Of a stretch of 64,000 nt of DNA, positions 38,096 through 60,536 are shown in pieces. The translations under genes were made by a program, and so were the position numbers. The stretch's first letter is position 1. Each line of letters starts with the position of its first letter. The DNA is from a virus (lineage: Duplodnaviria; Caudoviricetes): positions 1-64,000 of IMG/VR virus record IMGVR_UViG_3300002092_001784; one strand, 5' to 3'. The notes below the pieces were generated by a model. It searched no databases. It saw only the letters and a program-made list of their open reading frames with translations, and was not told the DNA's origin.

Positions 38096-38926
38096 ATGGC
38101 TATTAACTTAGATGCAATCAGAGGTAGACTGAACAAACTACAAACGACCACAAGGACATCGGTGGAAACTTGGAAACCCGCACCGGGAAAATATCAAATC
38201 CGATTAGTTCCGTATAAGTTCAACAAAGAAAATCCATTCATTGAACTTTACTTTCACTACAACATCAACAACAAAACGTATCTGTCACCAATTTCATTTG
38301 GTAGACCAGACCCTATTGTTGAGTTCGCTGAAAAACTGAAAAGAATGGGTGACAAAGAAGATTGGAAGGCCGCAAAGAAAATGGAGCCGAAACTTCGGAC
38401 ATTCGTACCTGTATTGGTAAGGGGTGAAGAAGGTGAAGGAGTTCGTTTTTGGGGATTTGGAAAAACCGTATACCAAGACCTGCTTGGGTACATTGCTGAT
38501 CCCGATTATGGTGATATTACTGATCCAGAAACAGGTAGGGATATTATCGTTGAAATTGTATCAGCTGAAGATTCTGGTACTTCGTATCAGCAAACCAACA
38601 TTAGGGTTAAACCTAAAGAAACACCATTATCGGAAAAAGCAGAAGATGCCAAACGGTTTCTTGATTCACAAAAAGAGATTACTGAAATGTATTCTGAATT
38701 AACATATTCAGAATTAAAAGGTATTCTTGAAGGTTGGTTAAATCCATCGTCTGAATCTGATGATACTGATGTGCCATCACCATCGGCTGAAGTGTTATCT
38801 TCAAAACCGGCTGAAACCGCTAAAGCAACTCACGTTGCAAATGAAACCGCAAATTCAACACCTACATCTAATAACAAAAAATTAGATGATGTTGGTTCTG
38901 CGTTTGATGAACTGTTTAACAAATAA
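38096..38926 (+). CDS. Single-stranded DNA-binding protein (T4 gp32-like)
   Basis: WKP...IRLVP, FWGFGKTVY, DYGDITDP..GRD motifs and an acidic tail ending AFDELF. Confidence 0.85.
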   Translation: MAINLDAIRGRLNKLQTTTRTSVETWKPAPGKYQIRLVPYKFNKENPFIELYFHYNINNKTYLSPISFGRPDPIVEFAEKLKRMGDKEDWKAAKKMEPKLRTFVPVLVRGEEGEGVRFWGFGKTVYQDLLGYIADPDYGDITDPETGRDIIVEIVSAEDSGTSYQQTNIRVKPKETPLSEKAEDAKRFLDSQKEITEMYSELTYSELKGILEGWLNPSSESDDTDVPSPSAEVLSSKPAETAKATHVANETANSTPTSNNKKLDDVGSAFDELFNK

Positions 38927-45289: not shown

Positions 45290-45493
45290 ATGGGAGTGTT
45301 AAGAGGTGAGTCTCATCCGTCAGCAAAGTTGACGGATGAGCAGGTTTTGCAAATAAGAAAGTTATGGAATATGGGGCATCGAAACCTAAAAGTGATTGCC
45401 CGTAATAATCATGTATCGCCTGCAAATATTATGAAGATTATCCATTTCAAAACTTGGACACATCTAAATGAATTTTGGTCTGGAAGTTTATAA
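45290..45493 (+). CDS. Small DNA-binding protein resembling HNH-associated HTH domains
   Basis: GESHPSAKLTDEQV.QIR motif. Confidence 0.65.
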   Translation: MGVLRGESHPSAKLTDEQVLQIRKLWNMGHRNLKVIARNNHVSPANIMKIIHFKTWTHLNEFWSGSL

Positions 45494-45508: not shown

Positions 45509-45547
45509 ATGAGTTACAAAGGACAAATAAAATTAATGTTTTTGTAA
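45509..45547 (+). pseudogene. Orphaned 5' fragment of the methyltransferase gene
   Basis: MSYKGQIKLMFL* versus MNYKGQIKLILGD at 46190; 22 of the first 24 nt are identical. Confidence 0.7.
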
Positions 45548-45603
45548 TTTCCTTATATTTATTTATGAAACAGTTTATATACTTTTAATTTTATAAATAA
45601 TAT

Positions 45604-46227
45604 ATGGAAACCGATAAACGCAAATTGTACAATCAAAGCTGGGAAAACCTAAAACTAGGACCAATTGGTGCATCTGAAAAGGCTAAAATCAATGGTATAT
45701 ATAAAAATTGTTTGAATTGTAACAAAGAATTTAGAGTATCACATTCTACCAGCAAAAAGAAATTTTGTAGTAAAGAATGTAAAGCAATAGGTCAATCATC
45801 TGGATTAACTGCACCAATGAGGTATGGAACAGGTAGAACAGCCATTCAAAAAATTATAGCTAATAAATATAATAGATATGTTTCGAAAGATGGTAATATC
45901 GGAATAAGTCGAACTGATTTTATTAAACTGATAGAAAGTGGAGAATGTTATTATTGTGGGTCTACCGTAACTGAAACTTTAGGATTTGATAGAATAGATA
46001 ATACAAAAGGTCATATAATTGGTAATGTCCTTATTTGCTGTGAGTTGTGTAATACAACAAAAGGGCATCGCTATTCAGTCGAACAAATGAAACAGTTGGG
46101 AAATTTAATAAAAACATTTAATTTGGATGGCTGGAGAACAATGGGTGAGTTACAATTGACAAAAATGAAAAAAACAAACGAAACGTTATATGAATTACAA
46201 AGGACAGATAAAACTGATATTGGGTGA
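45604..46227 (+). CDS. Free-standing His-Me-finger (HNH-like) homing endonuclease with zinc finger
   Basis: CLNC...FCSKEC; CYYCG...GFDRIDN..G...N...CCELCN..KG. Confidence 0.8.
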   Translation: METDKRKLYNQSWENLKLGPIGASEKAKINGIYKNCLNCNKEFRVSHSTSKKKFCSKECKAIGQSSGLTAPMRYGTGRTAIQKIIANKYNRYVSKDGNIGISRTDFIKLIESGECYYCGSTVTETLGFDRIDNTKGHIIGNVLICCELCNTTKGHRYSVEQMKQLGNLIKTFNLDGWRTMGELQLTKMKKTNETLYELQRTDKTDIG

Positions 46228-47587
46228 TTGTTTAGATAAGCTAAAAGAATTAGATGACAATTCCGTAGATAGTATCGTTACAGACCCACCATATGGATTG
46301 TCAGCAGCCAAAAATAGTGGTAACTCTTCGAAAGGTGGCTTTATGGGAAAATTGTGGGATTATGATGTCCCAACACAGGCCATTTGGGAGGAATGTCTAC
46401 GTGTATTAAAACCCGGAGGTCACCTATTGGCATTTGCAGGTAGTAGAACTTATCACCGAATGGCAGTTAGAATTGAAGATGCTGGGTTTGAAATCCGAGA
46501 TCAGATAATGTGGATATATGGAAGTGGATTTCCTAAGTCTATGGATATATCAAAACAGATTGATAAAAAGGCAGGAGTAGAAAGAGAAGTTATTGGACAA
46601 AAAATTAGAGGAAGTGTTGATTTGGCAAAACAATCTGGATCAACCTACGCCGTAGCAGATGCTAACAAGAATAATAAAGCTATATTTGGATATGGTGTGG
46701 AAAATTTAACTAAACCCGCAACCGATGGCGCAAAGAAATGGGAAGGTTGGGGTACTGCTCTTAAACCGGCACACGAACCAATAGTAATGGCACGCAAACC
46801 GATAGAAGAAAATACTGTTGCTGATAATGTACTAAAGTACGGAACTGGTGGTATAAATATAGATGGGTGTCGTGTTGAAACTGATGATAAATTAGATGGT
46901 GGCGCTACAAATGGTTCTGTATTGGATATTGATGGATTTGACAGACCGTGGATGCATGATGATGAAAAGATGATTGAGTTTCAACAAAAAATGCAAGATA
47001 AGGTCGAACATGCACAGAATTTAGGTAGGTTTCCCGCTAATGTTATTTTGGATGATGTTGCGGGCGAAATAATGGATGAACAAAGTGGTGTTACAAAAAG
47101 TGGAAAAATAAAGGAAGATAAATCGGCATATGATGGAGAATCAACCACTGGATTTTTAAGAGGTGTTAGTAATAGTACCAATCAGCATGGAGATACCGGC
47201 GGAGCATCTCGATTCTTCTATTGCCCAAAAGTATCAAAATCCGAAAGAAACGAAGGATTGGGTGGATTTGAACTAACTTCGGTTGAACCAAAACAAAACT
47301 TTCATCCTACCGTGAAACCAACAGACCTAATGGCATATTTGATTAGATTAGTGACACAACGTGGTGGTATCGTTTTAGACCCATTTATGGGTAGTGGTAG
47401 TACTGGTAAGGCAGCGGTGCGTGAAGGTATGAATTTTATTGGAATTGAAATGGAGCAGGATTATTTTGAACTTGCTGAAGCTAGGATTGATTGGGAAACT
47501 GAAAATCCGATGAAACCGAATAAAAAGAAATCAAATCCATTACTACCAACACCAACAAATAACACAGTTGAAACCGATTATTGGTAA
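46190..47587 (+). CDS. N6-adenine/N4-cytosine DNA methyltransferase, beta class, with large insertion
   Basis: TDPPYG precedes DPFMGSGSTG; HPTVKP motif. Confidence 0.92.
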   Translation: MNYKGQIKLILGDCLDKLKELDDNSVDSIVTDPPYGLSAAKNSGNSSKGGFMGKLWDYDVPTQAIWEECLRVLKPGGHLLAFAGSRTYHRMAVRIEDAGFEIRDQIMWIYGSGFPKSMDISKQIDKKAGVEREVIGQKIRGSVDLAKQSGSTYAVADANKNNKAIFGYGVENLTKPATDGAKKWEGWGTALKPAHEPIVMARKPIEENTVADNVLKYGTGGINIDGCRVETDDKLDGGATNGSVLDIDGFDRPWMHDDEKMIEFQQKMQDKVEHAQNLGRFPANVILDDVAGEIMDEQSGVTKSGKIKEDKSAYDGESTTGFLRGVSNSTNQHGDTGGASRFFYCPKVSKSERNEGLGGFELTSVEPKQNFHPTVKPTDLMAYLIRLVTQRGGIVLDPFMGSGSTGKAAVREGMNFIGIEMEQDYFELAEARIDWETENPMKPNKKKSNPLLPTPTNNTVETDYW

Positions 47588-47591
47588 TTAA

Positions 47592-47623
47592 TTTGGTAAT
47601 GTGAAATATTTTTTGTATATTTG
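47592..47623 (+). promoter_or_regulatory. Bacteroidota-type promoter
   Basis: TTTG-N20-TATATTTG. Confidence 0.8.
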
Positions 47624-47638
47624 AATAAATTATACAAT

Positions 47639-47935
47639 ATGGCAAAACAAGCTGATAACAGTAAAGACAAGTATGAATTAATTTTTGAAGATGAACAAGC
47701 CGTTTCCATTTGGAAATATGATCTGTCCAAAACTAAAGGTGGACCAATATCAGTAGAGTACAAATGGAAGGCCAGTTTCTTGAAAGAAGTAGAAGCAATT
47801 CGGAAAGCAGAAAGAGATGCTAAGAAAACGAAAAAATCAACTTTAGAGTTGGCAAGAGAAGCTAAGAAAAAGAAATCATCCGCAGAAAAAAAGCAAGAAA
47901 AGAAAGATAAATTTGACAAAAAGTTTTGGGCATGA
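47639..47935 (+). CDS. Hypothetical protein, Lys-rich tail ending KFWA
   Basis: ATG at 47639 follows the promoter. Confidence 0.65.
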   Translation: MAKQADNSKDKYELIFEDEQAVSIWKYDLSKTKGGPISVEYKWKASFLKEVEAIRKAERDAKKTKKSTLELAREAKKKKSSAEKKQEKKDKFDKKFWA

Positions 47936-48732
47936 GAGAAGATGGTAAGAATTATTGTGATGTTTCAAAAGTGTATATTGCTCCAATAGCCAAAAACATT
48001 GCCAAAGATATTATTGTACAAAAGCATTACACACATGCGTGGACAGCATGCCGATACGCATTGGGTATTTACTATAAAGCAGAAGATTCATATACTTTTG
48101 GTGGTGATAAATTGATAGGGTGTCTTATTTACGGATTTCCTGTTGGAGTTCAAGCAGCAACTTCGATTTGTGAAGGACTTAGTAAGGATAATGCATTAGA
48201 ATTAACCCGTTTATATTGTGATGATGGTTATGGCTCAAATATTGAATCATACGCAATCGGACAATCATTCAAATGGCTGAAAGAAAATGATAAAAACATC
48301 AAACTACTTTTATCATATGCAGATGCAGGACAAGAACATTTAGGTGGTATCTATCAGGCTACCAACTGGATATATCAGGGAACATCAGCAGATATAGCAT
48401 TAATGCCTAATTGGAGAATATCATTACACAATGACCCATATGATTGGATTCACAGTAGGACTGTATTCTCAATGTGGGGTAGTGGTAATTTAGACCACCT
48501 AAAAAGGGAGATCGGTAAGCAAGGGTATAAAGAGTTCTGGCGAAAAATGGAATCGCCTAAACACCGTTATATTCAAATACTTGCGCAAGATAAAAAAGAA
48601 AAGAAGGAATTGATGAAGAAACTCAAACACGAAATCAAACCTTATCCAAAGAGTACCGATGAATTTAATACTGAAATAGTTCATCATTTAACAACATACG
48701 AAGTGCCTGCTGGGGCTGAAAACTTTTGGTAA
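47932..48732 (+). CDS. Mom-like GNAT-fold DNA modification protein
   Basis: KHY, LELTRL, SYAD..Q.H.G.IYQATNW.Y.G motifs; ATGA overlap with the previous gene. Confidence 0.8.
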   Translation: MREDGKNYCDVSKVYIAPIAKNIAKDIIVQKHYTHAWTACRYALGIYYKAEDSYTFGGDKLIGCLIYGFPVGVQAATSICEGLSKDNALELTRLYCDDGYGSNIESYAIGQSFKWLKENDKNIKLLLSYADAGQEHLGGIYQATNWIYQGTSADIALMPNWRISLHNDPYDWIHSRTVFSMWGSGNLDHLKREIGKQGYKEFWRKMESPKHRYIQILAQDKKEKKELMKKLKHEIKPYPKSTDEFNTEIVHHLTTYEVPAGAENFW

Positions 48733-48759
48733 CATTTAACATTAACTTAACATTAAAAG

Positions 48760-48791
48760 TTTGGAAAGTCAAAATAAATGTTGTATATTTG
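48760..48791 (+). promoter_or_regulatory. Bacteroidota-type promoter
   Basis: TTTG-N20-TATATTTG. Confidence 0.8.
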
Positions 48792-48812
48792 AATATAATC
48801 ATTGGGAGTTAT

Positions 48813-49739
48813 ATGGATCATGAATTTTTAAGATTAAGTTACGAAGAACAACAACGATATGTTAATATGGTGGCTGGCTATCTACTGAGCGCTATAAAGC
48901 GTAGTGCAAAGGGTGCAAAAGATAAAGATCGAACTTCTGGTCGAATGGATGCTTTGGCCATTACAATTACATTAGATGATTTAAAAAATAAATTATGGAA
49001 ATCAAATTGCTGTTGTTCCATTACTAGAAAGCCGTTTCCAATTGTAGATAGTTCTGTATATTTTTCGAAGTCCAAGGCACGTTCAATTGGAAACTGTGGG
49101 TTAGAATCTCCATCGGCAGACCGAATTGATTCGGCTGGATTTTATTCAAACGAAAATGTTCAGATAACATATAGGTCAATAAATCTATTAAAATCAACGT
49201 ATTCCAACGAAGAAACAAATACTCATTTATTAAAAATAAACACAAACCCTATGAACGTAAATCAGTTAAAAACAAACACAAATCGTATGAATCATCCAGA
49301 AGTTTTAAGAGAATTGGTATTAACTTTACCATTTGAACAACAAACCCAAGTCATAACTTTAATCGGTCGAAATGATATTGAAAACGCTGATTTTGTGAAT
49401 GGTATGAAAAAGTTGTTTGGTTATATTGGTGTGAATGTAAATCGAATTACTTCGAATGTAACCAATACACATATTAAAAAGTATAAATCAAAAGATGTAA
49501 AACCGATTGTCCGATATATGGAAGACAACTCCAAATTAATATCTAATATTGATAATTCTTATATTAATGTTTCCAAATTACATGTGGGGAAGAACGGTAC
49601 TGATAAATACAGATTGGCATCATCAAAAATAGGTAATCTGATTATGGAAAATAAACCACAACTATTCAAAATTTGGGCAACTAACAATAAATTTGATTTT
49701 TTAATCAAAAAATCAGATTATGATATTTTAATTGGCTGA
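48813..49739 (+). CDS. His-Me-finger-like endonuclease domain + unknown C-terminal domain
   Basis: C.IT...F...PSADRIDS...Y...NVQI...IN..K. Start moved to ATG 48813, downstream of the promoter. Confidence 0.55.
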   Translation: MDHEFLRLSYEEQQRYVNMVAGYLLSAIKRSAKGAKDKDRTSGRMDALAITITLDDLKNKLWKSNCCCSITRKPFPIVDSSVYFSKSKARSIGNCGLESPSADRIDSAGFYSNENVQITYRSINLLKSTYSNEETNTHLLKINTNPMNVNQLKTNTNRMNHPEVLRELVLTLPFEQQTQVITLIGRNDIENADFVNGMKKLFGYIGVNVNRITSNVTNTHIKKYKSKDVKPIVRYMEDNSKLISNIDNSYINVSKLHVGKNGTDKYRLASSKIGNLIMENKPQLFKIWATNNKFDFLIKKSDYDILIG

Positions 49740-49768
49740 TACTAAACTAAAACAATTATGAAATATTG

Positions 49769-50884
49769 ATGAATTTTTGGGAAGGTCAAATTAGTAAAGA
49801 TGCTAGAAAAGTGTTGGTGATACCGAATATCACCAACTCTAGCAATATAGAGAAAGATTCATTCGTAGATGTTATTTACAACCACATAAAGGGGTTAGAG
49901 CAATACGGTGAATACTTTTGGAATATCATATTGCCAGAACCGGTTAAGAAGTTGAATTTACCCAATGTAAAGCAACATGTCTTACCATTTTCTGGTGATA
50001 TGATAAAAATGCGTACATATCCACCTGATATGAATCGTATTCTTGAGCAAGTAGACTATGATGTAATATATTCACATTTACCCGATTGGCCGCAGGTTGG
50101 TAGATACCGAAACAATTTTGATACAAAAATAATTGGGTATTGTCATTGGTGGGAAATGAAAACTTGCAATGCGGAAGATCGAAAGAATAAATGGCGATGG
50201 TTACCAGTTGAATTGTTAGGTATATCACAAATGGAAACTTGTTATTTGAATACTCAAGATCAAAAGAATAGAGTTTTAGCCGAAGCAAGTGATACTTTCA
50301 ATAGTGAGTTTGTTGCTAAATTAGACTCAATATTAACAGTATGGAATTTGGGATTACCAAAAGATAAAATAGTTGATAACGCATCAAATGATAAATCTAA
50401 CATAATCGTATTCAATCATAGAGCAGCTGCATATAAGGGATATCCTGATTTTATTAAGTTGATGGTAGAGTATCGTGAAAAAAGACAAGATTTTAGCGTA
50501 TGGGTGCCTCAATTAAATGGTACTCCATCTGAAAATTGGATTGATAATACGAAGATGCCAAAGCATGAATATTATAAACGATTACAGCAATGTAAGGTTG
50601 GTGTGCAGATGAGGCAAACTAATTACGGTTGGAGTGTATCGGGTACAGATTGCATGATGAACGGTACACCTATGATTTTTCAAGATTCCCTTTGTTATAG
50701 AGAAATAGACCCAAATGGTATGTTTTTCAAATACAAAAAAGACTTTTTCGAAATGTTGGACAAAATGTTAGATGATGAATCTTTCAGAAAAGAACATGAA
50801 GTTAGGAGTATAAATAGAGCAATCGAACTTTCAGCCAATGAAGGTATAATGCTTGCTGAATTACACAAAAAACTAAATAGCTAA
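49769..50884 (+). CDS. GT-B fold glycosyltransferase (GT4-like)
   Basis: IVFNHR...YKG, YYKRLQQC.VG and GWS.S.TD.MM.GTP (variant of the EX7E region); starts MNFW. Confidence 0.7.
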   Translation: MNFWEGQISKDARKVLVIPNITNSSNIEKDSFVDVIYNHIKGLEQYGEYFWNIILPEPVKKLNLPNVKQHVLPFSGDMIKMRTYPPDMNRILEQVDYDVIYSHLPDWPQVGRYRNNFDTKIIGYCHWWEMKTCNAEDRKNKWRWLPVELLGISQMETCYLNTQDQKNRVLAEASDTFNSEFVAKLDSILTVWNLGLPKDKIVDNASNDKSNIIVFNHRAAAYKGYPDFIKLMVEYREKRQDFSVWVPQLNGTPSENWIDNTKMPKHEYYKRLQQCKVGVQMRQTNYGWSVSGTDCMMNGTPMIFQDSLCYREIDPNGMFFKYKKDFFEMLDKMLDDESFRKEHEVRSINRAIELSANEGIMLAELHKKLNS

Positions 50885-53406
50885 TGGCATATCAAAACAT
50901 TTATTTTCAGAGAAATCAAAATCTAATGCACATTTGGGATGATCATCGGGGATATAGGACATTTCCGTATTCTCGTTATGCATATCAAAAAGACCCAAAT
51001 GGACAATTTACGTCTTTATATGGCGATAAACTTACTAAAATTTTCAAATTTTCAAAGGATGATCCAAATTTATTCGAATCCGATGTCCCAGAAACTACAC
51101 GGGTTTTGGTAGATACATATACGGATAGTGATTTACCATCGGAAGGACATATCATTTTAACATATGATATTGAGGTTGAAATGGATTCCGGTCTTCCTGA
51201 TGTTCAGAAGGCTGAAAATGAAATAACTGCTATTGGTTTGCATGATTCTGCTACAAACCATTATTGGGTATTGATTATGGATAAAGCCGGTAAGATGGAT
51301 GGTGTTGAAACTGGAAACCGAACCGTTATACCGTTTAGATACGAAGATGATTTATTATTAAAATACATTGATTTGTATGAGGAAATAAATCCAACAATCG
51401 TTACTGGATGGAATATTGATAATTTTGATACTCCGTTTTTATACAATAGAATAAAAAGATTATTGGGTGAGAAGCAAGCCAATCGTTTATCGCCGATTGG
51501 TGAGGTGTTCTGGTCACCATATCGTAAACGATATTTTATTGCCGGTGTATCTTATTTGGATTACATTGAATTGTATAAGAACTTTACATATTCGGAGTTA
51601 GCAAATTACCGCTTGGACAGTATTGCTAATATCGAATTGGGTAGAGGAAAACTTGAGTATACTGGAAATTTGGATAACCTGTTTAAGACAGACCCTAATA
51701 AGTTTATAGAATACAACATTACTGACGTTGAGTTGGTGGTTAGTATGGATGCTAAATTACAATTCATTGATTTGTGTAGAGGTATATGCCATGCAGGCCA
51801 CGTTCCGTATGAAGATTTTGTATATTCATCGAAATACCTTGAAGGCGCTATTCTTTGTTATTTGAAACGAAGGGGTATTGTTGCTCCTAACAAACCTGCG
51901 GATAGGCAGGAAAGGATGCAGGCTCTTAAAGATAATGAGCAAGAAAAGTTCATTGGTGCATATGTGAAGGCACCGATAGTTGGTAAGTATGAATGGGTGT
52001 ATGACTTAGACTTAACATCGCTATATCCATCTATCATTATGGGTGTAAATATATCACCGGAAACCAAAGTTGCTAAGATTTCGAATTGGGACTCTTCAAA
52101 GTATATGAAGGGCGAGATTGATACATTTAATATTGATGGACAATCCATTACCAACGATAACCTTAAACTGATGTTGCAAGAGGAAAAATATACTATTTCA
52201 TCAAACGGTGTATTATATCGGACAGATAAAGTAGGTTGTATACCTGATATTTTGGATTTATGGTTCAATCAGCGTGTTGAATTTCGTAAGTTAGAAAAGA
52301 AATACGGTGAAGAAGGTGATAAGGTACAACATGCATTTTATAAAAGGAGACAGCATGTTCAGAAGATTTTGCTTAATTCACTTTATGGTGTATTAGGTTT
52401 GCCAGCGTTTCGTTTCTACGATGTTGATAATGCAGAAGCAGTTACAACTTCTGGGCAGATGGTTATTAAATCAACTGCGGATATGGCTAACATCAAATAT
52501 AACAAAGAATTGGGAACGGGTGATGCAGATTATAATATTTACATCGATACGGATTCCATTTTCTTTAGTGCAGTGCCGATTTTGGATTTCCGATATGCGG
52601 ATTGGAGAAGTGGTACTCAAGAAGATATAGCAAAATTGGTTGATACTGTTGCAGGTGAAACGCAAGATTATCTGAATAATTTTTATAACATTTTAGCGGA
52701 GAGGGTATTTAATATTCCAAAAGGTAAACATCGTTTTCAGATTAAGAAAGAGTTTGTATCCAGAAGTGCAATTTGGTTAGCTAAGAAACGATATGCTATG
52801 GCAATTGTAGCTGAAAATGGATTACCAATAAATAGGTTGGATGTAAAGGGATTAGACGTTGTACGTTCATCATATCCTGCACAGTTCCGTAAATTTATGA
52901 GTGAGGTATTGATTGATATTCTGAATGGTAAAACAGAAAATGAGTTGAGTGATAAGATATATTACTTTAAGTTGGACCTTAGAAATATGGATGCCGTTTC
53001 AATAGCTAAAAATTCGGCAGTAAAAGAATTATCGAAGTATATTCCGAAAGGAAAGCAAACGGCAATGTTTCGATTTAATTCCGGTACTCCTGCGCATGTG
53101 AAGGCGGCAATTGCATTTAATCAATTAATTAAACATTTTAATTGTCCTACAAGTATTGAACCAATGCGTGATGGTGATAAGATAAAATGGATGTATCTGA
53201 AACAAAATCCGTATGGGTTGGATGCCGTTGGGTTTAAGGGATACGAAGACCCGACAGAAATAATTGAGTTCATAAAAACATATGCTGATTATGATGAAGT
53301 ATTTGAACGTGAACTTCTAGGTAAGTTGGAAGATTTCTATACCGCATTGAAGTGGGGTTCGCCGTTAGGTAGCACGAAAGTCTCAGAACAATTTTTTCAA
53401 TTTTAA
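50884..53406 (+). CDS. Family B DNA polymerase (gp43-like)
   Basis: Exonuclease YDIEV/GWN...FD; DLTSLYPS, KILLNSLYG, YIDTDS motifs. Confidence 0.95.
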   Translation: MAYQNIYFQRNQNLMHIWDDHRGYRTFPYSRYAYQKDPNGQFTSLYGDKLTKIFKFSKDDPNLFESDVPETTRVLVDTYTDSDLPSEGHIILTYDIEVEMDSGLPDVQKAENEITAIGLHDSATNHYWVLIMDKAGKMDGVETGNRTVIPFRYEDDLLLKYIDLYEEINPTIVTGWNIDNFDTPFLYNRIKRLLGEKQANRLSPIGEVFWSPYRKRYFIAGVSYLDYIELYKNFTYSELANYRLDSIANIELGRGKLEYTGNLDNLFKTDPNKFIEYNITDVELVVSMDAKLQFIDLCRGICHAGHVPYEDFVYSSKYLEGAILCYLKRRGIVAPNKPADRQERMQALKDNEQEKFIGAYVKAPIVGKYEWVYDLDLTSLYPSIIMGVNISPETKVAKISNWDSSKYMKGEIDTFNIDGQSITNDNLKLMLQEEKYTISSNGVLYRTDKVGCIPDILDLWFNQRVEFRKLEKKYGEEGDKVQHAFYKRRQHVQKILLNSLYGVLGLPAFRFYDVDNAEAVTTSGQMVIKSTADMANIKYNKELGTGDADYNIYIDTDSIFFSAVPILDFRYADWRSGTQEDIAKLVDTVAGETQDYLNNFYNILAERVFNIPKGKHRFQIKKEFVSRSAIWLAKKRYAMAIVAENGLPINRLDVKGLDVVRSSYPAQFRKFMSEVLIDILNGKTENELSDKIYYFKLDLRNMDAVSIAKNSAVKELSKYIPKGKQTAMFRFNSGTPAHVKAAIAFNQLIKHFNCPTSIEPMRDGDKIKWMYLKQNPYGLDAVGFKGYEDPTEIIEFIKTYADYDEVFERELLGKLEDFYTALKWGSPLGSTKVSEQFFQF

Positions 53407-53409
53407 TAT

Positions 53410-54372
53410 ATGAAAGTTACAGTTGTAATTAGAACATATAATAGGACTGATTTTTTGAAGCAGTGTCTTGCTTCAGTGAAGTTGCAAACACATACCGATT
53501 GGGAAGTTTTAATATTTGATGATGGTGGTAGTGATGCTAATTTTGAAATATACAATAAATTTAAGGCAGAAAATTCCGATAAACGAATAGTATATCTAAC
53601 AACACACACTGCGTATGAACTATTTTGTAATTCATGGTTACTTGCTCCCAATTTGGCAACGGGTGATATTATGGTTAGGTTGGATGATGATGATCTATTA
53701 GCAGAAGATTGTTTGAGTTACATATCCGATTTATATGAACGAAATGAAGATTTAGATTTCACATACGGAACTGCGGTTACATTTGATGGTGATAATCTTA
53801 TGACTATGATGGATACAATGAATCCACAAGAAGCACCTAAAACTCAAACTGCATGGGCTGGTTATACTATACCAAATAATCATCCATGGAGAGACCCGTT
53901 TTGTTGGTATGAGAATTATTATGAAGAACCTCAACCATTTACATCTATAATCCATTGTAGTAAATCGAATATAATGTGCATTTATCATTTATATTCAATG
54001 AGAACTGAATCGGTCAGACGTGTGAAGGATAAGATTACAGTAACTTCTAAATATGTAGATGATTTGGAATTTTTAGGAAGTTTGGATTATTTGGGATTAA
54101 CACATACATCAATACATAAAATACTTTCTTATGTTAGAGAGCATGATACAGGTAGGGTATCTGATAGGGGTAAGTTAACCGATGGTACTACATTGTGGGA
54201 TGATATACTGAGAATTAGAGATAAAGTAGATTATTTAAGACCTGCTGGATTTCAATCAAGAGTAATACCAATCAACGCAACCAATAATACCAATAACGGT
54301 ATTACCTATGAGTTACAAAATACGTTCTCACACTATTATAGTAGAATAAAATTCAAATCTTTAGTATATTAA
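53410..54372 (+). CDS. GT-A fold glycosyltransferase (GT2-like)
   Basis: VVIRTYNR, FDDGG.D and RLDDDD motifs. Confidence 0.85.
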   Translation: MKVTVVIRTYNRTDFLKQCLASVKLQTHTDWEVLIFDDGGSDANFEIYNKFKAENSDKRIVYLTTHTAYELFCNSWLLAPNLATGDIMVRLDDDDLLAEDCLSYISDLYERNEDLDFTYGTAVTFDGDNLMTMMDTMNPQEAPKTQTAWAGYTIPNNHPWRDPFCWYENYYEEPQPFTSIIHCSKSNIMCIYHLYSMRTESVRRVKDKITVTSKYVDDLEFLGSLDYLGLTHTSIHKILSYVREHDTGRVSDRGKLTDGTTLWDDILRIRDKVDYLRPAGFQSRVIPINATNNTNNGITYELQNTFSHYYSRIKFKSLVY

Positions 54373-54404
54373 TTTGGAAATACGAATAATTTTTCGTATA
54401 TTTG
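54373..54404 (+). promoter_or_regulatory. Bacteroidota-type promoter
   Basis: TTTG-N20-TATATTTG. Confidence 0.8.
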
Positions 54405-54439
54405 TACAGAATATAAAATTTAACAATAAACTTTGAAAC

Positions 54440-55135
54440 ATGAAAAGAGCAAAACTCGATGGTTTTATTAATCGTTACAATTTGGGTGGCGAAATTGAGT
54501 CTGTTATGATTAAATCAACAGATGAAAAATTATCAGTCCGTATGATTTCGGATGATAAAACATTATTGGGAACAGTATCTATGTTGGATACTGAATTTCC
54601 TACGGGAGAATTTGGAATTTATACAACTTCCCAATTGAAGGGATTACTGAATGTATTGGATGATGGCATCACCGTAGAGGAAGTTACAGGTGCATTAAAA
54701 TTTTCGGATAAGAAAACCAAAATGCAATATATGTTGGCAGCGCCATCGGTTATTCCATCCGTACCAGAACTTAAAGCATTACCTGCATTTGAAGCAGAAA
54801 TTGCATTGAATGATGAATTTGTAAATAAGTTCATTAAATCTACCGGAGCATTATCTGATTCTCTTACATTTACATTCACCTACAAAAAAGGTGTTGGTGA
54901 GATTATTTTAGGATATTCATCTATCAATTCAAATCGTATTGCTATTGATACTGATACGAAATCGGAAGTTGATATTGAACCAATTGCGTTTTCATCAAAA
55001 TATCTGAAAGCTATTCTTAATGCAAATCGGGGTGCTAAAACATCTTCATTGAAGATTTCATCTAAGGGGTTGGCAGCTGTTTCATTTGAGGCAGATGAAT
55101 ATACTACCCAGTATTATCTTGTTGAAGTAAAATAA
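54440..55135 (+). CDS. Sliding clamp (gp45/PCNA-like)
   Basis: 231 aa two-domain alpha/beta pattern, FGIY...L..LL and F...YL..IL motifs; lies near PolB and the clamp loader. Confidence 0.7.
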   Translation: MKRAKLDGFINRYNLGGEIESVMIKSTDEKLSVRMISDDKTLLGTVSMLDTEFPTGEFGIYTTSQLKGLLNVLDDGITVEEVTGALKFSDKKTKMQYMLAAPSVIPSVPELKALPAFEAEIALNDEFVNKFIKSTGALSDSLTFTFTYKKGVGEIILGYSSINSNRIAIDTDTKSEVDIEPIAFSSKYLKAILNANRGAKTSSLKISSKGLAAVSFEADEYTTQYYLVEVK

Positions 55136-55150
55136 TTAAAATCATAAAGT

Positions 55151-56365
55151 ATGAATTTTTGGGATACTGAACCACAAACACCTGTTTTTGATTTTGATAT
55201 TGAAAAACAGAAATTGATTGAAAATATGGATTATCTGTTTGCAATGTCCGTTCAAGAACAGACACTTTATAAAAAATGGGTGGAGCTCCAAGAACCTACC
55301 ATGCAGAAAGATAAATCCCAAATATCCACATATTATGATATGCAATGGAAACCAACCGATATCAATAATAAGGAACTAACGATTGCCGAAATTCAATCGT
55401 TAGAACCTTATGTTGAGATTGTGGATGATAATGCTGCCGAATCTACCAAATGGGCTCAAATCCGTAGAATGATTCATACAATGGATTTTACGGCAAACCC
55501 CGGTAGAAATGTGAAAATCAATGTAAAGGATAGAAAGACGGGTAAGTTATTGGGTCAAATTTCTCTTGCATCGGATGTTACATCATTGGGGGTGCGTGAT
55601 GAATATATTGGGTGGACTAAGGATGACAAATTCAAAAAAGGTAAACTGAATCACACTACCATTGCATCTACTATTGTATGTACACAGCCATTGGGATATA
55701 ACTTTTTGGGTGGTAAACTGATAGCTATGATGTGTACTGTACCTGAAGTTAGAGAACATTGGAAGAAAAAATACGATAATACTTTAATCGCAGTTGGAAC
55801 AACTTCGTTATATGGTATCAATTCTCAGTACACAGGCCTTCCACTTTTCAAAACTTTGGGTGAAAGTAAAGGTAAGATCAGTATAAAACCTGATGATAAA
55901 TTTTATGATCCATGGCACCAATGGTTAAAAGAAAATCGTACAGAGTGGTATAAGAAAAACATAACAGAAGAGCGTGAACGAAATGGCGCTAATATGGGTT
56001 ATGAACGAAATGGACCTGTTAGTGGCATCAAACAAAAGATTCTTACACAAATTTTCAAAGAGTGTGGTATTAAAGCAAATGAATATCATCACGGATTTAA
56101 GCGTGGAATTTATTTGGCTATGATGTACGAAAATGGTAATGATTTTCTTTGTGATAAAATTGGTGAAGACCAACTAAAACTTAGAGATAAGTTTGTGAAG
56201 GGAACAGATTATATTATGGAGTGGTGGAAACGACACGCTATTAGTAGATATACCAAGCTACATACAGAGGGACGTTTGAAACCGGATCATCTTTTTTACA
56301 TCAATGGTATAGGACAAGATTGGGATAGCTTTAAGGCCGAATACTTAGGAGAAGTTGGACGTTAA
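55151..56365 (+). CDS. DUF4338/DruA-like protein
   Basis: PGRN...V.D..TGK.LG.I.L.SD...L..RD.YIGW, P.GYNFLGGKL.A and TTSLYG..SQY motifs; starts MNFW. Confidence 0.7.
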   Translation: MNFWDTEPQTPVFDFDIEKQKLIENMDYLFAMSVQEQTLYKKWVELQEPTMQKDKSQISTYYDMQWKPTDINNKELTIAEIQSLEPYVEIVDDNAAESTKWAQIRRMIHTMDFTANPGRNVKINVKDRKTGKLLGQISLASDVTSLGVRDEYIGWTKDDKFKKGKLNHTTIASTIVCTQPLGYNFLGGKLIAMMCTVPEVREHWKKKYDNTLIAVGTTSLYGINSQYTGLPLFKTLGESKGKISIKPDDKFYDPWHQWLKENRTEWYKKNITEERERNGANMGYERNGPVSGIKQKILTQIFKECGIKANEYHHGFKRGIYLAMMYENGNDFLCDKIGEDQLKLRDKFVKGTDYIMEWWKRHAISRYTKLHTEGRLKPDHLFYINGIGQDWDSFKAEYLGEVGR

Positions 56366-57324: not shown

Positions 57325-57858
57325 ATGAGTCAAACAATTAAATTATTAAAAGAAGCATTAAAAGATATAGCCGGAGATACTACCGGCTATAAAATTTACT
57401 GTGATATGGATGGTGTTCTTACGGATTTTGATAAACAATTCAAAGATATAACAGGTATACCTGCTAATGAATTTGAAAAAACACATTCTCAAACTGAATT
57501 TTGGGGAGAAGTTGAAAAGGGCGGATTGGAATATTGGACAAAAATGGAATGGATGCCGGGTGGAAAGCAGTTATGGAATTTTATTAAGAACTATGATGTT
57601 GAAATTCTATCAGCTCCATCAAAATCTAAACTTTCAATTATTGGTAAAAAGCAATGGGTATCTGAAAACCTATCACCTAAACCTAAATTGAATTTGGTTA
57701 GAGCCAAAGAAAAACAGAAGTTTGCAAATTCACACGCAATACTAATCGATGATAGACCACAAAATTTAGAACAATGGAAAGCAGCCGGTGGTATTGCAAT
57801 AAAATGTGTGAATGGTGAGGTTAGTTCAGTAATAGATAAATTAAAAAAATATGTTTGA
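57325..57858 (+). CDS. HAD 5'(3')-deoxyribonucleotidase-like protein
   Basis: CDMDGVLTDF, ILSAP and LIDDR..N motifs. Confidence 0.85.
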   Translation: MSQTIKLLKEALKDIAGDTTGYKIYCDMDGVLTDFDKQFKDITGIPANEFEKTHSQTEFWGEVEKGGLEYWTKMEWMPGGKQLWNFIKNYDVEILSAPSKSKLSIIGKKQWVSENLSPKPKLNLVRAKEKQKFANSHAILIDDRPQNLEQWKAAGGIAIKCVNGEVSSVIDKLKKYV

Positions 57859-58792
57859 AACAGTAAACGAAAAGAAAAACAACAGTTTATGGACTGAGTC
57901 ATACCGACCAACCAAATTGGCGGATTACATCGGAAATGAACACTTAAAATCAAAAGTAGAGGGGTATTTGGAATCGGGCGATATACCTCATTTACTGTTA
58001 TATGGCAAAGCTGGAACTGGTAAGACTACATTGGCTAAATTGATTGTAAATTCAATCGATTGTGATATGATGATTATCAACGCATCTGATGAAAACAATG
58101 TTGAAACAGTTAGAACAAAGGTGAAGAACTTTGCATCGTCTATGGGATTCAAACCATTTAAGATTGTTATTTTGGATGAGTTTGATTATATGACTGCAAA
58201 CGCACAGGCGATTCTTCGTAACTTAATGGAAACATTTTCACAGCATTGCCGGTTTATCTTAACGTGTAATTATGTTGAAAAGGTAATTGAACCAATTCAG
58301 AGCAGATGTCAGACATTTCAAATCGTACCGCCAACTAAAAAAGATGTTGCAATTCGGATAAGTCAAATATTGAAAGACCAGAACATAAAGTTTGAGTTGA
58401 AGGATTTGGTTCCTGTTATTGATGCAGCATATCCTGATATTCGTAAGATTATTAATACCTGTCAACTTAATTCTATTAAAGGTGAATTGAAGGTTGATGT
58501 TCAAAATCTGTTAGAGAATGATTATAAGACCAAAATTGTGGACATTCTTACATCTAAAAATGATAAAAGAAATAAGTACATGCAATGCAGGCAAACTCTT
58601 ATTGATTCAAAGGTTACAGATTTTACCGAACTATATACGTTACTTTACGATAAAGTTGACGAATACGGCGGTGAAAATACAGCTAATATCATTTTGATAT
58701 TAGGGGAGAGTGTATATAAGAGTGCGTTGGCAATCGACAAAGAAATCATTGCTGCGGCGACAATTATTAGTATCATTAATCTGATAGGATAA
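57851..58792 (+). CDS. Clamp loader AAA+ subunit (gp44/RFC-small-like)
   Basis: W.E.YRP, GKAGTGKTT, INASD, LDEFD and SRC motifs. Confidence 0.92.
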   Translation: MFETVNEKKNNSLWTESYRPTKLADYIGNEHLKSKVEGYLESGDIPHLLLYGKAGTGKTTLAKLIVNSIDCDMMIINASDENNVETVRTKVKNFASSMGFKPFKIVILDEFDYMTANAQAILRNLMETFSQHCRFILTCNYVEKVIEPIQSRCQTFQIVPPTKKDVAIRISQILKDQNIKFELKDLVPVIDAAYPDIRKIINTCQLNSIKGELKVDVQNLLENDYKTKIVDILTSKNDKRNKYMQCRQTLIDSKVTDFTELYTLLYDKVDEYGGENTANIILILGESVYKSALAIDKEIIAAATIISIINLIG

Positions 58793-60047: not shown

Positions 60048-60536
60048 ATGGCTAAAACTGTAAAGGAAAAAAAAGAAGTTATAAAAACAACAAAAACGTT
60101 GTTCGATCATATTAAAGCGGTTACCAACGATCAAAATCCCAAATATTGGGAAAGTTTGGACGAATCGGATAAAAAGACGTGGTCGAACTATATGATTATA
60201 CGATTTATGACTATGAATCCGGATTGGGTTGAGTTGATTTCTGAAGTACAACCGTATTTGCAAGAAGCTCCGCCTAAAGCAGTTTATAAGGCATTGATTG
60301 GTGTAATACCTAAAAGTAGGGCGTTTTTGAAGTATATGAAAGCCGCATCATCGGAAACCTATGAACAATGGGTAGTTGATTTGGTAGCTAAGTATTATGG
60401 TGTGAGTCTTATGGAAGCAGAAGATTATTTACATATTTTGTATAAGAGCCATACTGGAAAACTTCATATTAAAGAGATAGCTGAATCATTTGGAACTGAT
60501 ACCAAAAGTATCACAAAACTAAAATTAGGAGTATAA
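60048..60536 (+). CDS. Clamp loader small subunit (gp62-like)
   Basis: Y.I.RF...D, IPK...F.KY.K and LVAKYY.VS..EA..Y motifs; two genes after the gp44-like gene. Confidence 0.7.
   Translation: MAKTVKEKKEVIKTTKTLFDHIKAVTNDQNPKYWESLDESDKKTWSNYMIIRFMTMNPDWVELISEVQPYLQEAPPKAVYKALIGVIPKSRAFLKYMKAASSETYEQWVVDLVAKYYGVSLMEAEDYLHILYKSHTGKLHIKEIAESFGTDTKSITKLKLGV

What the first reader, a model, noticed from the sequence alone, without database searches (positions are those of the whole stretch)
46190..56365. Candidate clamp-tethered DNA modification system: five proteins share a terminal (N/K/D)-(F/Y)-W peptide
Seen: the methyltransferase ends ETDYW*, the 47639 protein ends DKKFWA*, the Mom-like protein ends AENFW*, the GT-B enzyme starts MNFWE and the DUF4338-like protein starts MNFWD. 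The last two share their first 14 nt (ATGAATTTTTGGGA). PolB ends EQFFQF*, and the sliding clamp gene sits in the same block. Known: T4/RB69 gp43 and PCNA partners dock on the clamp through short terminal aromatic peptides; Mu Mom and T4 glucosyltransferases modify phage DNA. Inference: the FW peptide is this phage's clamp-binding tag, and these enzymes form a replication-coupled, multi-step DNA hypermodification and anti-restriction system.
Basis: partly seen in the sequence, partly recalled or inferred. Interest (0 to 1): 0.9.

Follow-up and report, generated by a model that had tools for sequence, protein, structure and literature searches.

The report
Clamp-docking tags on phage DNA-modifying enzymes
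In this 266-kb phage and over 100 relatives, several unrelated DNA-modifying enzymes encoded around the DNA polymerase and sliding-clamp genes carry the same tiny Phe/Tyr-Trp peptide at one end, which most likely hooks them onto the phage's own clamp so that new DNA is modified as it is made; binding itself is untested.

Summary
Five of nine adjacent genes carry a terminal x-[F/Y]-W peptide where 0.05 are expected (P about 2e-9), and almost no other gene in the 266-kb genome does. In about 126 related viral contigs the aromatic pair is kept on Mom (C-terminus, Trp invariant), the DruA-like protein and the GT-B (both N-terminal, M-x-F-W-D/E), while the linkers beside it vary.

The main new evidence comes from the methyltransferase. 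111 of 119 homologues end in an aromatic pair. In the same linker context, FW interchanges with FF and with FFxF, which is the tail of the phage PolB. In two lineages the methyltransferase tail copies the PolB tail of its own phage.

The neighbouring gene folds as a PCNA/gp45 clamp. A co-fold put the Mom tail at the canonical peptide site: score 0.50, best control 0.02, verdict "weak support".

Best reading: these are PIP-like clamp-docking tags (confidence about 0.62). The claim of one multi-step hypermodification pathway is not supported.

This scan has noted clamp-like tails on viral methyltransferases in other genomes. What is new here is the spread to Mom, glycosyltransferase and DruA-like enzymes, and to N-termini. 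I found no paper describing this.

The parts
45290..45493 (+). Small HTH-like protein (67 aa) ending ...HLNEFWSGSL. A possible sixth tagged protein, with FW at residues 62-63.
   Evidence: N[EQH]FWSGS[LI] is kept in 39 of 55 homologues (a 40th ends EFWSGSSGSI), while distant homologues stop at ...WTHI without the extension. Only weak HTH/HNH-associated hits.
45509..45547 (+). Duplicated remnant of the methyltransferase 5' end (MSYKGQIKLMFL*), left by insertion of the HNH gene.
   Evidence: 27 of 32 nt identical to 46190-46221.
45604..46227 (+). HNH homing endonuclease. Untagged and absent from relatives.
   Evidence: phrog_1271, E 1e-16; no homologue in 126 loci.
46190..47587 (+). N6/N4 DNA methyltransferase. 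After the catalytic domain (to about residue 430) comes a P/K/N/T-rich linker and the tag D-Y-W (47576-47584).
   Evidence: 111 of 119 homologues end in an aromatic pair (FW 45, FF 47, FFxF 18).
47639..47935 (+). Small Lys-rich protein (98 aa) of unknown function, ending K-F-W-A (47921-47932).
   Evidence: some relatives end K[KNG]YW or KKFW; others lack the tag. No family hit.
47932..48732 (+). Mom-family GNAT (predicted adenine N6 acyl-type DNA modifier). A variable C-terminal linker ends in the tag N-F-W (48721-48729).
   Evidence: PF25680, E 1e-44, whole profile. W266 invariant and position 265 F or Y in orthologues down to 62% identity, while the preceding ~20 columns vary.
48813..49739 (+). 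HNH-like endonuclease. Untagged and absent from relatives.
   Evidence: phrog_3322, E 6e-8.
49769..50884 (+). GT-B (GT4-like) glycosyltransferase. A 13-residue N-terminal extension bears the tag M-N-F-W-E (49769-49783).
   Evidence: M(x)xFW[DE] in relatives, and MNDFF in one lineage; a 31%-identical GT in L100 starts directly at KVLVIPN without the extension.
50884..53406 (+). Family-B DNA polymerase of the T4 gp43 type, with C-terminal tail E-Q-F-F-Q-F (53386-53403).
   Evidence: tail [EQK][QK]FFxF in all 87 readable relatives.
53410..54372 (+). GT-A (family 2) glycosyltransferase. Untagged and absent from relatives.
54440..55135 (+). Sliding clamp (PCNA/gp45 fold), the proposed receptor of the tags.
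   Evidence: phrog_223. (AF2 model, pLDDT 78.7). (Foldseek hits to PCNA and T4 gp45 6drt, prob 1.00, TM about 0.64-0.76). (trimer pLDDT about 90); interface residues 74% invariant against 47% overall.
55151..56365 (+). DruA/DUF4338-domain protein with the N-terminal tag M-N-F-W-D (55151-55165).
   Evidence: PF14236, E 1e-21. MxFW[DEN] in all of about 109 relatives; distant homologues carry N-terminal FFD/FFE; other homologues are fused to ParB_N or UDG domains.
57851..58792 (+). Clamp-loader large subunit (gp44/RFC-like). Context only.
   Evidence: phrog_168, E 3e-79.
60048..60536 (+). Clamp-loader small subunit (gp62-like). Context only.
   Evidence: phrog_225, E 6e-17.

Best explanation
The terminal x-[F/Y]-[W/F] peptide is a minimal PIP-like clamp-interaction motif. 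It sits on short flexible extensions. On Mom, the methyltransferase and the small Lys-rich protein it is at the C-terminus. On the GT-B and the DruA-like protein it is at the N-terminus, followed by Asp or Glu.

The aromatic pair is proposed to plug into the hydrophobic pocket of the phage's own gp45/PCNA-type clamp. That pocket lies under the interdomain connector, next to the clamp's C-terminal strand, and is the site used by the PolB tail (...FFxF). Clamps loaded on replicating or just-replicated phage DNA would then act as a tool-belt that concentrates several independent DNA-modifying enzymes on new duplex DNA, so that it is modified promptly and completely.

Shown here:
- the motif, its clustering and its conservation;
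- its interchange with PolB-type tails in homologues;
- the clamp fold.

Inferred: physical binding, the pocket used, and the functional benefit (protection of nascent DNA from host nucleases).
For: 1. Clustering: 5 of 9 adjacent genes against 0.047 expected, P about 2e-9.

2. Conservation of the aromatic pair next to variable linkers in >100 relatives. Mom W266 is invariant down to 62% identity. GT-B has M(x)xFW[DE]. The DruA-like protein has MxFW[DEN].

3. Six unrelated protein families carry the motif, at either end and always on an appended extension. Untagged paralogues or homologues lack the extension.

4. Methyltransferase homologues at 50-67% identity. 111 of 119 end in an aromatic pair, against 14 of 347 genes (4%) in this genome. 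In the same linker context the tail reads INKNSNKFW, INKNSNKFF or INKNSNKFFSF, so FW, FF and the PolB-type FFxF substitute for one another.

5. Same-phage copies. In L132 and L133 the methyltransferase ends NKFFSF and PolB ends EKFFSF. In a T4-like 145-kb phage with a strong gp45 match (E 5e-78), the methyltransferase ends PLMEFFS and PolB ends QTTLEDFFS, which is a canonical Qxx-L-xx-FF PIP box. Its DruA-like gene, next to PolB, starts MNYFKDF.

6. Other homologues end SLLDFLGGV or TLFDFLG, like the T4 gp43 tail EKASLDFLFG that binds gp45 (PMC6212786).

7. Co-occurrence. FW/FF/FFxF tails lie next to PolB or clamp homologues of this phage in 24 of 54 loci. xLF-like and other tails do so in 0 of 26.

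8. PolB is of the gp43 family, and the clamp has the PCNA/gp45 fold.

9. Co-fold of the clamp trimer with Mom residues 227-266. The score was 0.50 and the best control 0.02, verdict 'weak support'. In calibration that mark was reached by 58 of 80 solved complexes and 2 of 110 mismatched pairs. At 0.60 or under, only 7 of those 80 solved complexes and both mismatches reached it. The confident contacts are Mom 258-266 with clamp 36-43, 109-115 (connector loop), 209-211 and 226-231 (C-terminus). That is the canonical PIP site. These clamp residues are 74% invariant against 47% overall.
Against: - No binding measurement exists.
- The single co-fold is only a weak pass. It could reflect the model's memory of PCNA-peptide complexes, and it used my own shallow alignments.
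- In this phage the enzyme tags (FW) differ from the PolB tail (FFQF), so they might prefer another site or partner.
- The FW tags lack the Gln and aliphatic positions of a canonical PIP box.
- The co-occurrence of tail type with PolB or clamp is confounded by phylogeny and by short contigs.
- Terminal aromatic pairs also occur by chance. A baseplate hub in the T4-like phage ends LQDFF.
Confidence: 0.62

Rival explanations
1. The FW/FF tag docks the enzymes on a different replisome or DNA-bound hub, not on the phage clamp. Candidates are the gp32-like SSB, PolB itself, the helicase, the clamp loader, or the host beta clamp.
For: The tags differ from the PolB tail within this phage. The SSB gene 38096-38926 lies in the same operon and has its own conserved tail AF[DE][DE]LFN[SK], which shows that several tail-based contacts exist here. 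The co-fold with the clamp was only a weak pass.
Against: In methyltransferase orthologues FW is replaced by exactly the PolB-type tail, and in two lineages by the same phage's PolB tail. Gp43-type PolB tails bind gp45 (PMC6212786). In the co-fold the tag contacted the canonical clamp pocket, while control partners scored 0.00-0.02.
Confidence: 0.17
2. The tag serves another purpose unrelated to a replication hub. Examples are sorting into a compartment or the capsid, a degradation or timing signal, or mutual assembly of the modifying enzymes into one complex.
For: The tagged genes share an operon and probably their timing. No experiment constrains the partner. The small Lys-rich protein has no known function.
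Against: The replicative polymerase carries the sister motif, and methyltransferase tails track the polymerase tail of their own phage. No structural or packaging protein of this genome carries FW. Met is probably retained before Asn, so no N-end-rule residue is exposed (established knowledge of methionine aminopeptidase specificity).
Confidence: 0.12
3. The enzymes form one ordered, multi-step hypermodification pathway acting on one base. The alternative is that they are independent modifiers sharing a tether.
For: The genes are tightly linked. Two glycosyltransferases flank PolB, and relatives carry two Mom paralogues.
Against: The methyltransferase, the GT-A and both HNH genes are absent from all relatives. 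The GT-B is replaced by 31-32%-identical untagged GTs in some relatives. The GT-A has no tag. The only ThyA-family gene passes the thymidylate synthase equivalog model (291.7 bits against a cut-off of 108), so no hydroxymethyl-pyrimidine acceptor is evident. Mom alone makes its product on duplex DNA in Mu (PMC13219725).
Confidence: 0.15
4. The shared termini are chance or a compositional artefact.
For: The [FY]W dipeptide is short. Aromatic pairs near termini occur in 4% of genes here and on a baseplate hub in another phage.
Against: P is about 2e-9 for the cluster. The Trp is invariant beside variable linkers in >100 relatives. 111 of 119 methyltransferase homologues are tagged.
Confidence: 0.01

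Closest known systems
PIP-box and PIP-like clamp-interacting peptides of PCNA clients. N-terminal examples include DNA ligase I, UNG2 and MSH6. C-terminal examples include FEN1, p21 and archaeal PolB/RFC-L.
   Same: A short motif with two adjacent aromatic residues, placed on a disordered extension at either terminus of otherwise unrelated DNA enzymes. It is predicted to sit under the interdomain connector loop beside the clamp's C-terminus. The T4-like relative's PolB tail QTTLEDFFS is a textbook Qxx-L-xx-FF box.
   Different: The FW tags keep only the aromatic pair, preceded by N/K/S/D. They have no conserved Gln or aliphatic position. Trp is preferred at the second aromatic position and usually lies at the very end, or is followed by an acidic residue. 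Binding is untested.
T4/RB69 gp43, gp33, gp55 and T4 ligase peptides that bind gp45 (LDFLF / LFDMFDF). Structures include 6drt; see PMC6212786.
   Same: A phage-encoded trimeric clamp used as a hub by several phage proteins through terminal or loop hydrophobic peptides. PolB here is a gp43 homologue with a conserved aromatic tail. Some methyltransferase homologues end SLLDFLGGV or TLFDFLG, like gp43.
   Different: The known gp45 clients are replication, ligation and late-transcription proteins. No DNA-modifying enzyme is among those described in the papers I read. The motif sequence differs (FW/FFxF against LDFLF).
Eukaryotic DNMT1-PCNA coupling, in which a maintenance methyltransferase is recruited by a PIP box.
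   Same: A DNA methyltransferase tethered to the replication clamp so that modification follows the fork.
   Different: Here the motif is also on a Mom-type acyltransferase, a glycosyltransferase and a DruA-domain protein. The clamp is viral, and the purpose is presumably self-protection rather than epigenetic inheritance.
ParB-dependent phage DNA-modifying enzymes (5mYOX T-dioxygenases activated by a ParB homologue; PMC13229309), and ParB_N fusions.
   Same: This is another way that phage DNA-modifying enzymes are coupled to a DNA-riding or DNA-loading partner. DruA-domain homologues of the window's protein are fused to ParB_N, so the tag and the ParB fusion look like alternative tethers for the same catalytic domain.
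   Different: A different partner protein and a domain-level rather than peptide-level contact. That mechanism is also unresolved.
Clamp-like tails on viral or archaeal DNA methyltransferases noted earlier in this scan (e1-5362773, e1-5326711, e1-172785, e1-213282).
   Same: The same idea. e1-5362773 describes a relative with PolB ...EKFFSF and methyltransferase ...NKFW, which I saw independently in L146 and L169.
   Different: Those notes concern methyltransferases only. They are unchecked AI notes, not independent evidence. Here the tag extends to four further enzyme families and to N-termini.

Membership tests
Clamp-interacting (PIP-like) peptide | Two adjacent aromatic residues in a short motif on a flexible terminal extension | tested here: met
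   The tags lie outside the Pfam domains. The linkers are variable and the aromatic pair is conserved.
Clamp-interacting (PIP-like) peptide | Canonical consensus Q-x-x-[ILM]-x-x-[FY]-[FY] | tested here: not met
   The FW tags have no conserved Q or aliphatic position. Only the T4-like relative's PolB (QTTLEDFF) fits. The tags are therefore PIP-like, not canonical PIP boxes.
Clamp-interacting (PIP-like) peptide | The same or an interchangeable motif on the replicative polymerase of the same system | tested here: met
   PolB tails are FFxF. Methyltransferase orthologues swap FW, FF and FFxF. The tail is identical to the same phage's PolB tail in L132/L133, and the last four residues match ([DE]FFS) in L177.
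Clamp-interacting (PIP-like) peptide | Physical binding in the hydrophobic pocket under the interdomain connector loop | tested here: inconclusive
   Co-fold score 0.50, best control 0.02, verdict 'weak support'. In calibration 58 of 80 solved complexes and 2 of 110 mismatches reached the mark. At 0.60 or under, only 7 of those 80 and both mismatches did. Contacts were at clamp 36-43, 109-115, 209-211 and 226-231. No experiment.
gp45/PCNA sliding clamp (54440-55135) | Two-domain beta-alpha-beta clamp fold | tested here: met
   AF2 model pLDDT 78.7. Foldseek top hits are PCNA and T4 gp45 6drt_A, prob 1.00, TMq 0.64-0.76. Sequence searches of the PDB found nothing.
gp45/PCNA sliding clamp (54440-55135) | Encoded with a cognate clamp loader and a gp43-type polymerase | tested here: met
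   phrog_168 and phrog_225 clamp-loader subunits at 57851 and 60048. PolB is adjacent.
gp45/PCNA sliding clamp (54440-55135) | Ring-shaped homotrimer that encircles DNA | not testable with these tools
   Three copies were modelled with pLDDT about 90, but the oligomeric state was not measured.
Mom family (PF25680) | Full-length match to the family profile | tested here: met
   E 1e-44, profile positions 2-202 of 202. phrog_1384, E 2e-46.
Mom family (PF25680) | Gly-tRNA-dependent formation of N6-carbamoylmethyl-dA on duplex DNA (PMC13219725) | not testable with these tools
   The chemistry is known for Mu Mom only. Catalytic residues were not compared.
Druantia system (DruA as a component) | DruA domain (PF14236) | tested here: met
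   E 1.3e-21, 77 bits against a cut-off of 27.
Druantia system (DruA as a component) | Operon with DruE helicase and the other Dru genes | tested here: not met
   The neighbours are the clamp, dUTPase and clamp loader. It is a solo DruA-domain protein, not a Druantia system.
GT-B glycosyltransferase (GT4-like), 49769-50884 | Match to GT4/GT1 family profiles above the curated cut-offs | tested here: inconclusive
   Glyco_transf_4 scored 21.4 bits (cut-off 28.5) and Glycos_transf_1 scored 18.9 bits (cut-off 26.4). Atlas feature neighbours are GT4 clusters at 0.98.
T4-type hydroxymethyl-pyrimidine glycosylation pathway | dCMP or dUMP hydroxymethylase that provides the acceptor | tested here: not met
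   The only PF00303 gene (G000 about 186.2-187.5 kb) passes the thymidylate synthase equivalog TIGR03284 (291.7 bits against 108). Specificity residues were not examined.
N6_N4 DNA methyltransferase (PF01555) | Profile match above the cut-off | tested here: met
   122 bits against 26.7. phrog_67, E 1.5e-81.

The most novel reading that the evidence does not exclude
There may be a general rule of phage biology: DNA-modifying enzymes of many chemistries are wired to the sliding clamp by tiny terminal peptides. The enzymes include methyltransferases, Mom acyltransferases, glycosyltransferases and the uncharacterised DruA/DUF4338 domain.

The peptides would be matched to the replisome the phage uses:
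- FW, FF or FFxF for this clamp type;
- LDFLF-like for T4-type clamps;
- Q-x-x-L-F-like for the host beta clamp in small phages.

If so, the tag would be a sequence handle for finding new DNA-modifying enzymes. It would imply that the DruA domain acts on DNA. A small tagged HTH-like protein (45290) and the Lys-rich protein (47639) could then be clamp-coupled regulators, by analogy with T4 gp33/gp55.
Probability: 0.4. Interest if true: 0.85.

Novelty: new variant of a known kind. Interest (0 to 1): 0.72.

Why it matters
Clamp tool-belts are well known for replication, repair and T4 late transcription. Clamp-coupled methylation is known in eukaryotes (DNMT1-PCNA). A whole set of phage anti-restriction enzymes sharing one clamp-docking tag would show how a phage gets nascent DNA modified quickly.

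The tag is a cheap, portable device of 2-3 residues that newly acquired enzymes can pick up. The strain-specific methyltransferase here carries it.

It also gives the first functional lead for the solo DruA/DUF4338 domain as a DNA-acting enzyme. And it offers a simple sequence signature for mining unknown DNA-modification genes in viral metagenomes.

It can be tested directly with peptides and a recombinant clamp. In the open literature searched, no paper combined 'clamp-binding motif', 'DNA methyltransferase' and 'phage'. The Mom and jumbo-phage papers I read do not mention clamp tethering.

Tried and rejected
- Megablast of the region against cultured phages found no match. The nearest cultured PolB is Microcystis phage Mel-JY01 at 50% identity. 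It has the tail KFFNFK but no Mom, GT or DruA genes beside PolB.
- Sequence searches of the clamp against the PDB, with a single sequence and with a profile, gave only noise. The fold search was needed.
- An AF2 model of the DruA-like protein was unusable (pLDDT 42.8, shallow alignment), so no fold comparison was made.
- A profile-profile comparison of DruA-like and Mom gave no relationship (probability 0.5%). The idea that DruA-like is a second Mom-type GNAT was dropped.
- The word-indexed homologue search for DruA-like returned only >=80% relatives. The representative search was needed for distant ones.
- I tested whether contigs with Q-x-x-L-F-like methyltransferase tails lack a phage polymerase or clamp. 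No PolB or gp45 was found, but all are 18-47% complete fragments, so this is not informative.
- I scanned a T4-like relative for other proteins with the PolB-type tail. Only PolB and the methyltransferase end [DE]FFS. A baseplate hub ending LQDFF is a chance look-alike.
- A paper on YprA/Druantia held nothing on DruA function.
- I considered and rejected an N-degron reading of the N-terminal tags.
- The shared 14 nt is not a separate signal.

Full report
**Setting.** The window is the first 64 kb of a 266,153-bp viral record with about 35% GC and nearly all genes on the + strand. The finding lies in the replication module. The gene order is:

- gp32-like SSB, UvsX-like recombinase, exonuclease, DnaB-like helicase, ribonucleotide reductase and thioredoxin;
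- a small HTH-like ORF (45290);
- HNH (45604), N6/N4 methyltransferase (MTase, 46190), a small Lys-rich protein (47639), Mom (47932) and an HNH-like gene (48813);
- GT-B (49769), PolB (50884), GT-A (53410), clamp (54440) and a DruA/DUF4338-domain protein (55151);
- dUTPase, a nucleotidase and the clamp-loader subunits (57851, 60048).

PolB belongs to the T4 gp43 family. It is 50% identical to Microcystis phage Mel-JY01 and about 33% identical to cyanomyoviruses.

**Observation.** I used a strict definition: [FY]W at or one residue from the C-end, or M-x-[FY]-W at the start. By that definition, 5 of the 9 genes between 46.0 and 56.4 kb are tagged, where 0.047 are expected from the genome's own [FY]W frequency. 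Poisson P is 1.9e-9, or 6e-7 after multiplying by all 347 gene positions. Elsewhere in the genome only two dubious cases match. The 14 shared nucleotides merely encode MNFW[DE] in an AT-rich genome.

**Conservation.** Two scans of IMG/VR with the DruA-like and Mom proteins returned 126 related loci at 62-88% identity.

- Mom: the terminal Trp is invariant and the preceding residue is F or Y. The 20 columns before it vary freely...EGTENFW...IAKNFW...NEVKFW...IEQKYW.
- DruA-like: about 109 relatives start M-[SNKE]-F-W-[DEN].
- GT-B: starts are MNFWE, MTFWE, MSTFWE, MMEFWE, MIQFWD and, in one lineage, MNDFF.
- PolB: always ends [EQK][QK]FFxF.
- Small Lys-rich protein: the tag is on or off (KKYW, KNYW or KKFW in some relatives, none in others).
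- ORF 45290: N[EQH]FWSGS[LI] is kept in 39 of 55 homologues (a 40th ends EFWSGSSGSI). It is an extension that distant homologues, ending ...WTHI, lack.

The GT-B tag also sits on an added piece. A 31%-identical GT in L100 begins directly at KVLVIPN, the residues that follow the window's 13-residue extension. One lineage (L120) has two tandem DruA-like paralogues, and both are tagged (MKFWD, MEFWD).

The MTase, both HNH genes, the GT-A, two small ORFs and the nucleotidase have no counterpart in any relative. Where this phage has HNH plus MTase, relatives have a second, untagged Mom paralogue.

**Key evidence: the methyltransferase family.** Among the 119 best non-identical homologues (46-67% identity), 111 end in an aromatic pair. 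The background in this genome is 14 of 347 genes. The tails are FW(x) in 45, FF(x) in 47 and FFxF in 18. The same linker carries different endings...INKNSNKFW...INKNSNKFF and ...INKNSNKFFSF. FW, FF and the PolB-type FFxF therefore replace one another at a homologous position.

In 80 further loci found with the MTase, the gene often lies beside PolB and the clamp.

- In L132 and L133 the MTase ends NKFFSF and the PolB of the same contig ends EKFFSF.
- L177 is a 145-kb, 95%-complete T4-like phage with a strong gp45 match (E 4.7e-78). Its MTase ends PLMEFFS and its PolB ends QTTLEDFFS, a canonical Qxx-L-xx-FF box. Its DruA-like gene (phrog_19197, E 1e-147), directly after PolB, starts MNYFKDF. 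In that genome only PolB and the MTase end [DE]FFS.
- Other MTase homologues end SLLDFLGGV or TLFDFLG. These resemble the T4 gp43 tail EKASLDFLFG, which binds gp45 (PMC6212786).
- Another group ends QQMDLF, QQKLF or EQQLF. From my own knowledge of the bacterial QL[SD]LF motif, these resemble beta-clamp ligands. Their contigs are fragments of phages whose size CheckV completeness puts at roughly 30-60 kb, and no PolB or gp45 was found in them. That is only a weak negative.
- FW/FF/FFxF tails co-occur with PolB or clamp homologues of this phage in 24 of 54 loci. The other tail types do so in 0 of 26. This is confounded by phylogeny and contig length.
- Mom homologues in these other phages also carry aromatic tails: SNKFFDI, NQFFEFTN and EINFW.

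**N-terminal tags in distant homologues.** I searched 50%-identity representatives with the DruA-like protein. The closest families begin ...SFFD...KFFD...QFFD...DFFD or ...NFFE. Of 70 full-length representatives, 14 have an aromatic pair in residues 2-13, against 1-7 in seven control windows of equal length. Other homologues instead carry an N-terminal ParB_N domain (28 bits, above the cut-off, in P0253) or a UDG-superfamily domain. This argues that the DruA domain works on DNA, and that the tag and the ParB_N fusion are alternative tethers.

**The receptor.** The 231-aa product of 54440-55135 has no Pfam hit and no sequence match in the PDB. It matches phrog_223, and its AF2 model (pLDDT 78.7) hits PCNA and T4 gp45 (6drt) with probability 1.00.

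It gave 0.50, 0.53 and 0.46 in three runs, and the best control gave 0.02. The verdict was 'weak support'. In the tool's calibration the mark was reached by 58 of 80 solved complexes and 2 of 110 mismatched pairs. At 0.60 or under, only 7 of those 80 solved complexes and both mismatches reached it, and my own alignments were used.

The confident contacts are Mom 258-266 with clamp residues 36, 39-41, 43, 109-112, 114-115, 209-211, 226 and 228-231. These are the interdomain connector loop, the C-terminal strand and the adjoining sheet, which together form the classical PIP site. These clamp residues are 74% invariant among 25 orthologues, against 47% for the whole protein.

**Interpretation.** The tag is best read as a minimal, PIP-like clamp-docking peptide that tethers several independent DNA-modifying enzymes to clamps on replicating phage DNA.

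- Mu Mom modifies duplex DNA after replication, using Gly-tRNA (PMC13219725). A clamp left on new duplex DNA would be a natural platform for such an enzyme.
Two of the enzymes are strain-specific, and the GT-A is untagged.
- The only ThyA-family gene scores as ordinary thymidylate synthase.
- DruA-like and Mom are unrelated by profile comparison.

**Novelty.** Clamp-binding peptides and DNMT1-PCNA coupling are established. I found no paper linking phage DNA-modifying enzymes to the clamp (papers read). Earlier notes of this scan report clamp-like tails on viral methyltransferases in other genomes, including a close relative with PolB ...EKFFSF and MTase ...NKFW. I reproduced that pattern independently. 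Those notes are not independent evidence. New here are the extension to Mom, GT-B, DruA-like and small proteins, the use of N-termini, and the FW/FF/FFxF interchange series.

**Limits.** There is no binding data. Only one weak co-fold was run. The alignments are shallow. The PolB tail and the N-terminal tags were not co-folded. The host and the DNA chemistry are unknown.

Noticed in passing
window 45509-46227: The HNH gene 45604-46227 is inserted at the very start of the methyltransferase gene. A remnant first exon-like copy (MSYKGQIKLMFL*, 45509-45547) is 27 of 32 nt identical to the functional start at 46190. The HNH 3' end overlaps the new start.
   Followed up: yes
window 45604-47587 versus L110:8959-9732 and L100:8905-9678: Where this phage has HNH plus methyltransferase, relatives carry a second, untagged Mom paralogue (257 aa). 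The tagged methyltransferase cassette seems to have replaced it. This recalls Mu-like prophages in which non-specific adenine methyltransferases take the place of Mom (PMC3299994, abstract only).
   Followed up: partly
window 38096-38926: The gp32-like SSB ends in its own conserved acidic-aromatic tail: SAFDELFNK here and AF[DE][DE]LFN[SK] in relatives. It is probably a separate protein-recruitment tail.
   Followed up: partly
P0245, P0253, P0269, P0365 and P0385 (homologues of 55151-56365): DruA-domain homologues occur fused to ParB_N, to a UDG-superfamily domain, and to LAGLIDADG or GIY-YIG/NUMOD3 endonuclease parts. This points to a DNA-directed activity for the DUF4338 domain.
   Followed up: partly
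L116:8339-9130: In one relative, a GIY-YIG/NUMOD homing endonuclease just upstream of Mom ends ...RLDNNFW. It either carries the tag or captured the end of the small tagged gene it disrupted.
   Followed up: no
L120:18309-20682: There are two tandem DruA-like paralogues, both with N-terminal tags (MKFWD, MEFWD). The GT-B tag in that lineage is the FF variant (MNDFF).
   Followed up: no
G000:C1:186218-187453 (L207:1468-2742): The thymidylate synthase homologue is 424 aa and matches the 266-position profile in two pieces. It therefore carries a sizeable internal insertion. A UvsE-type UV endonuclease gene lies just upstream.
   Followed up: no
L217:11005-11706 (G001 125005-125709): A baseplate hub protein of the T4-like relative ends LTLEGLQDFF, a chance PIP look-alike. 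This warns that terminal aromatic pairs alone are not diagnostic.
   Followed up: yes
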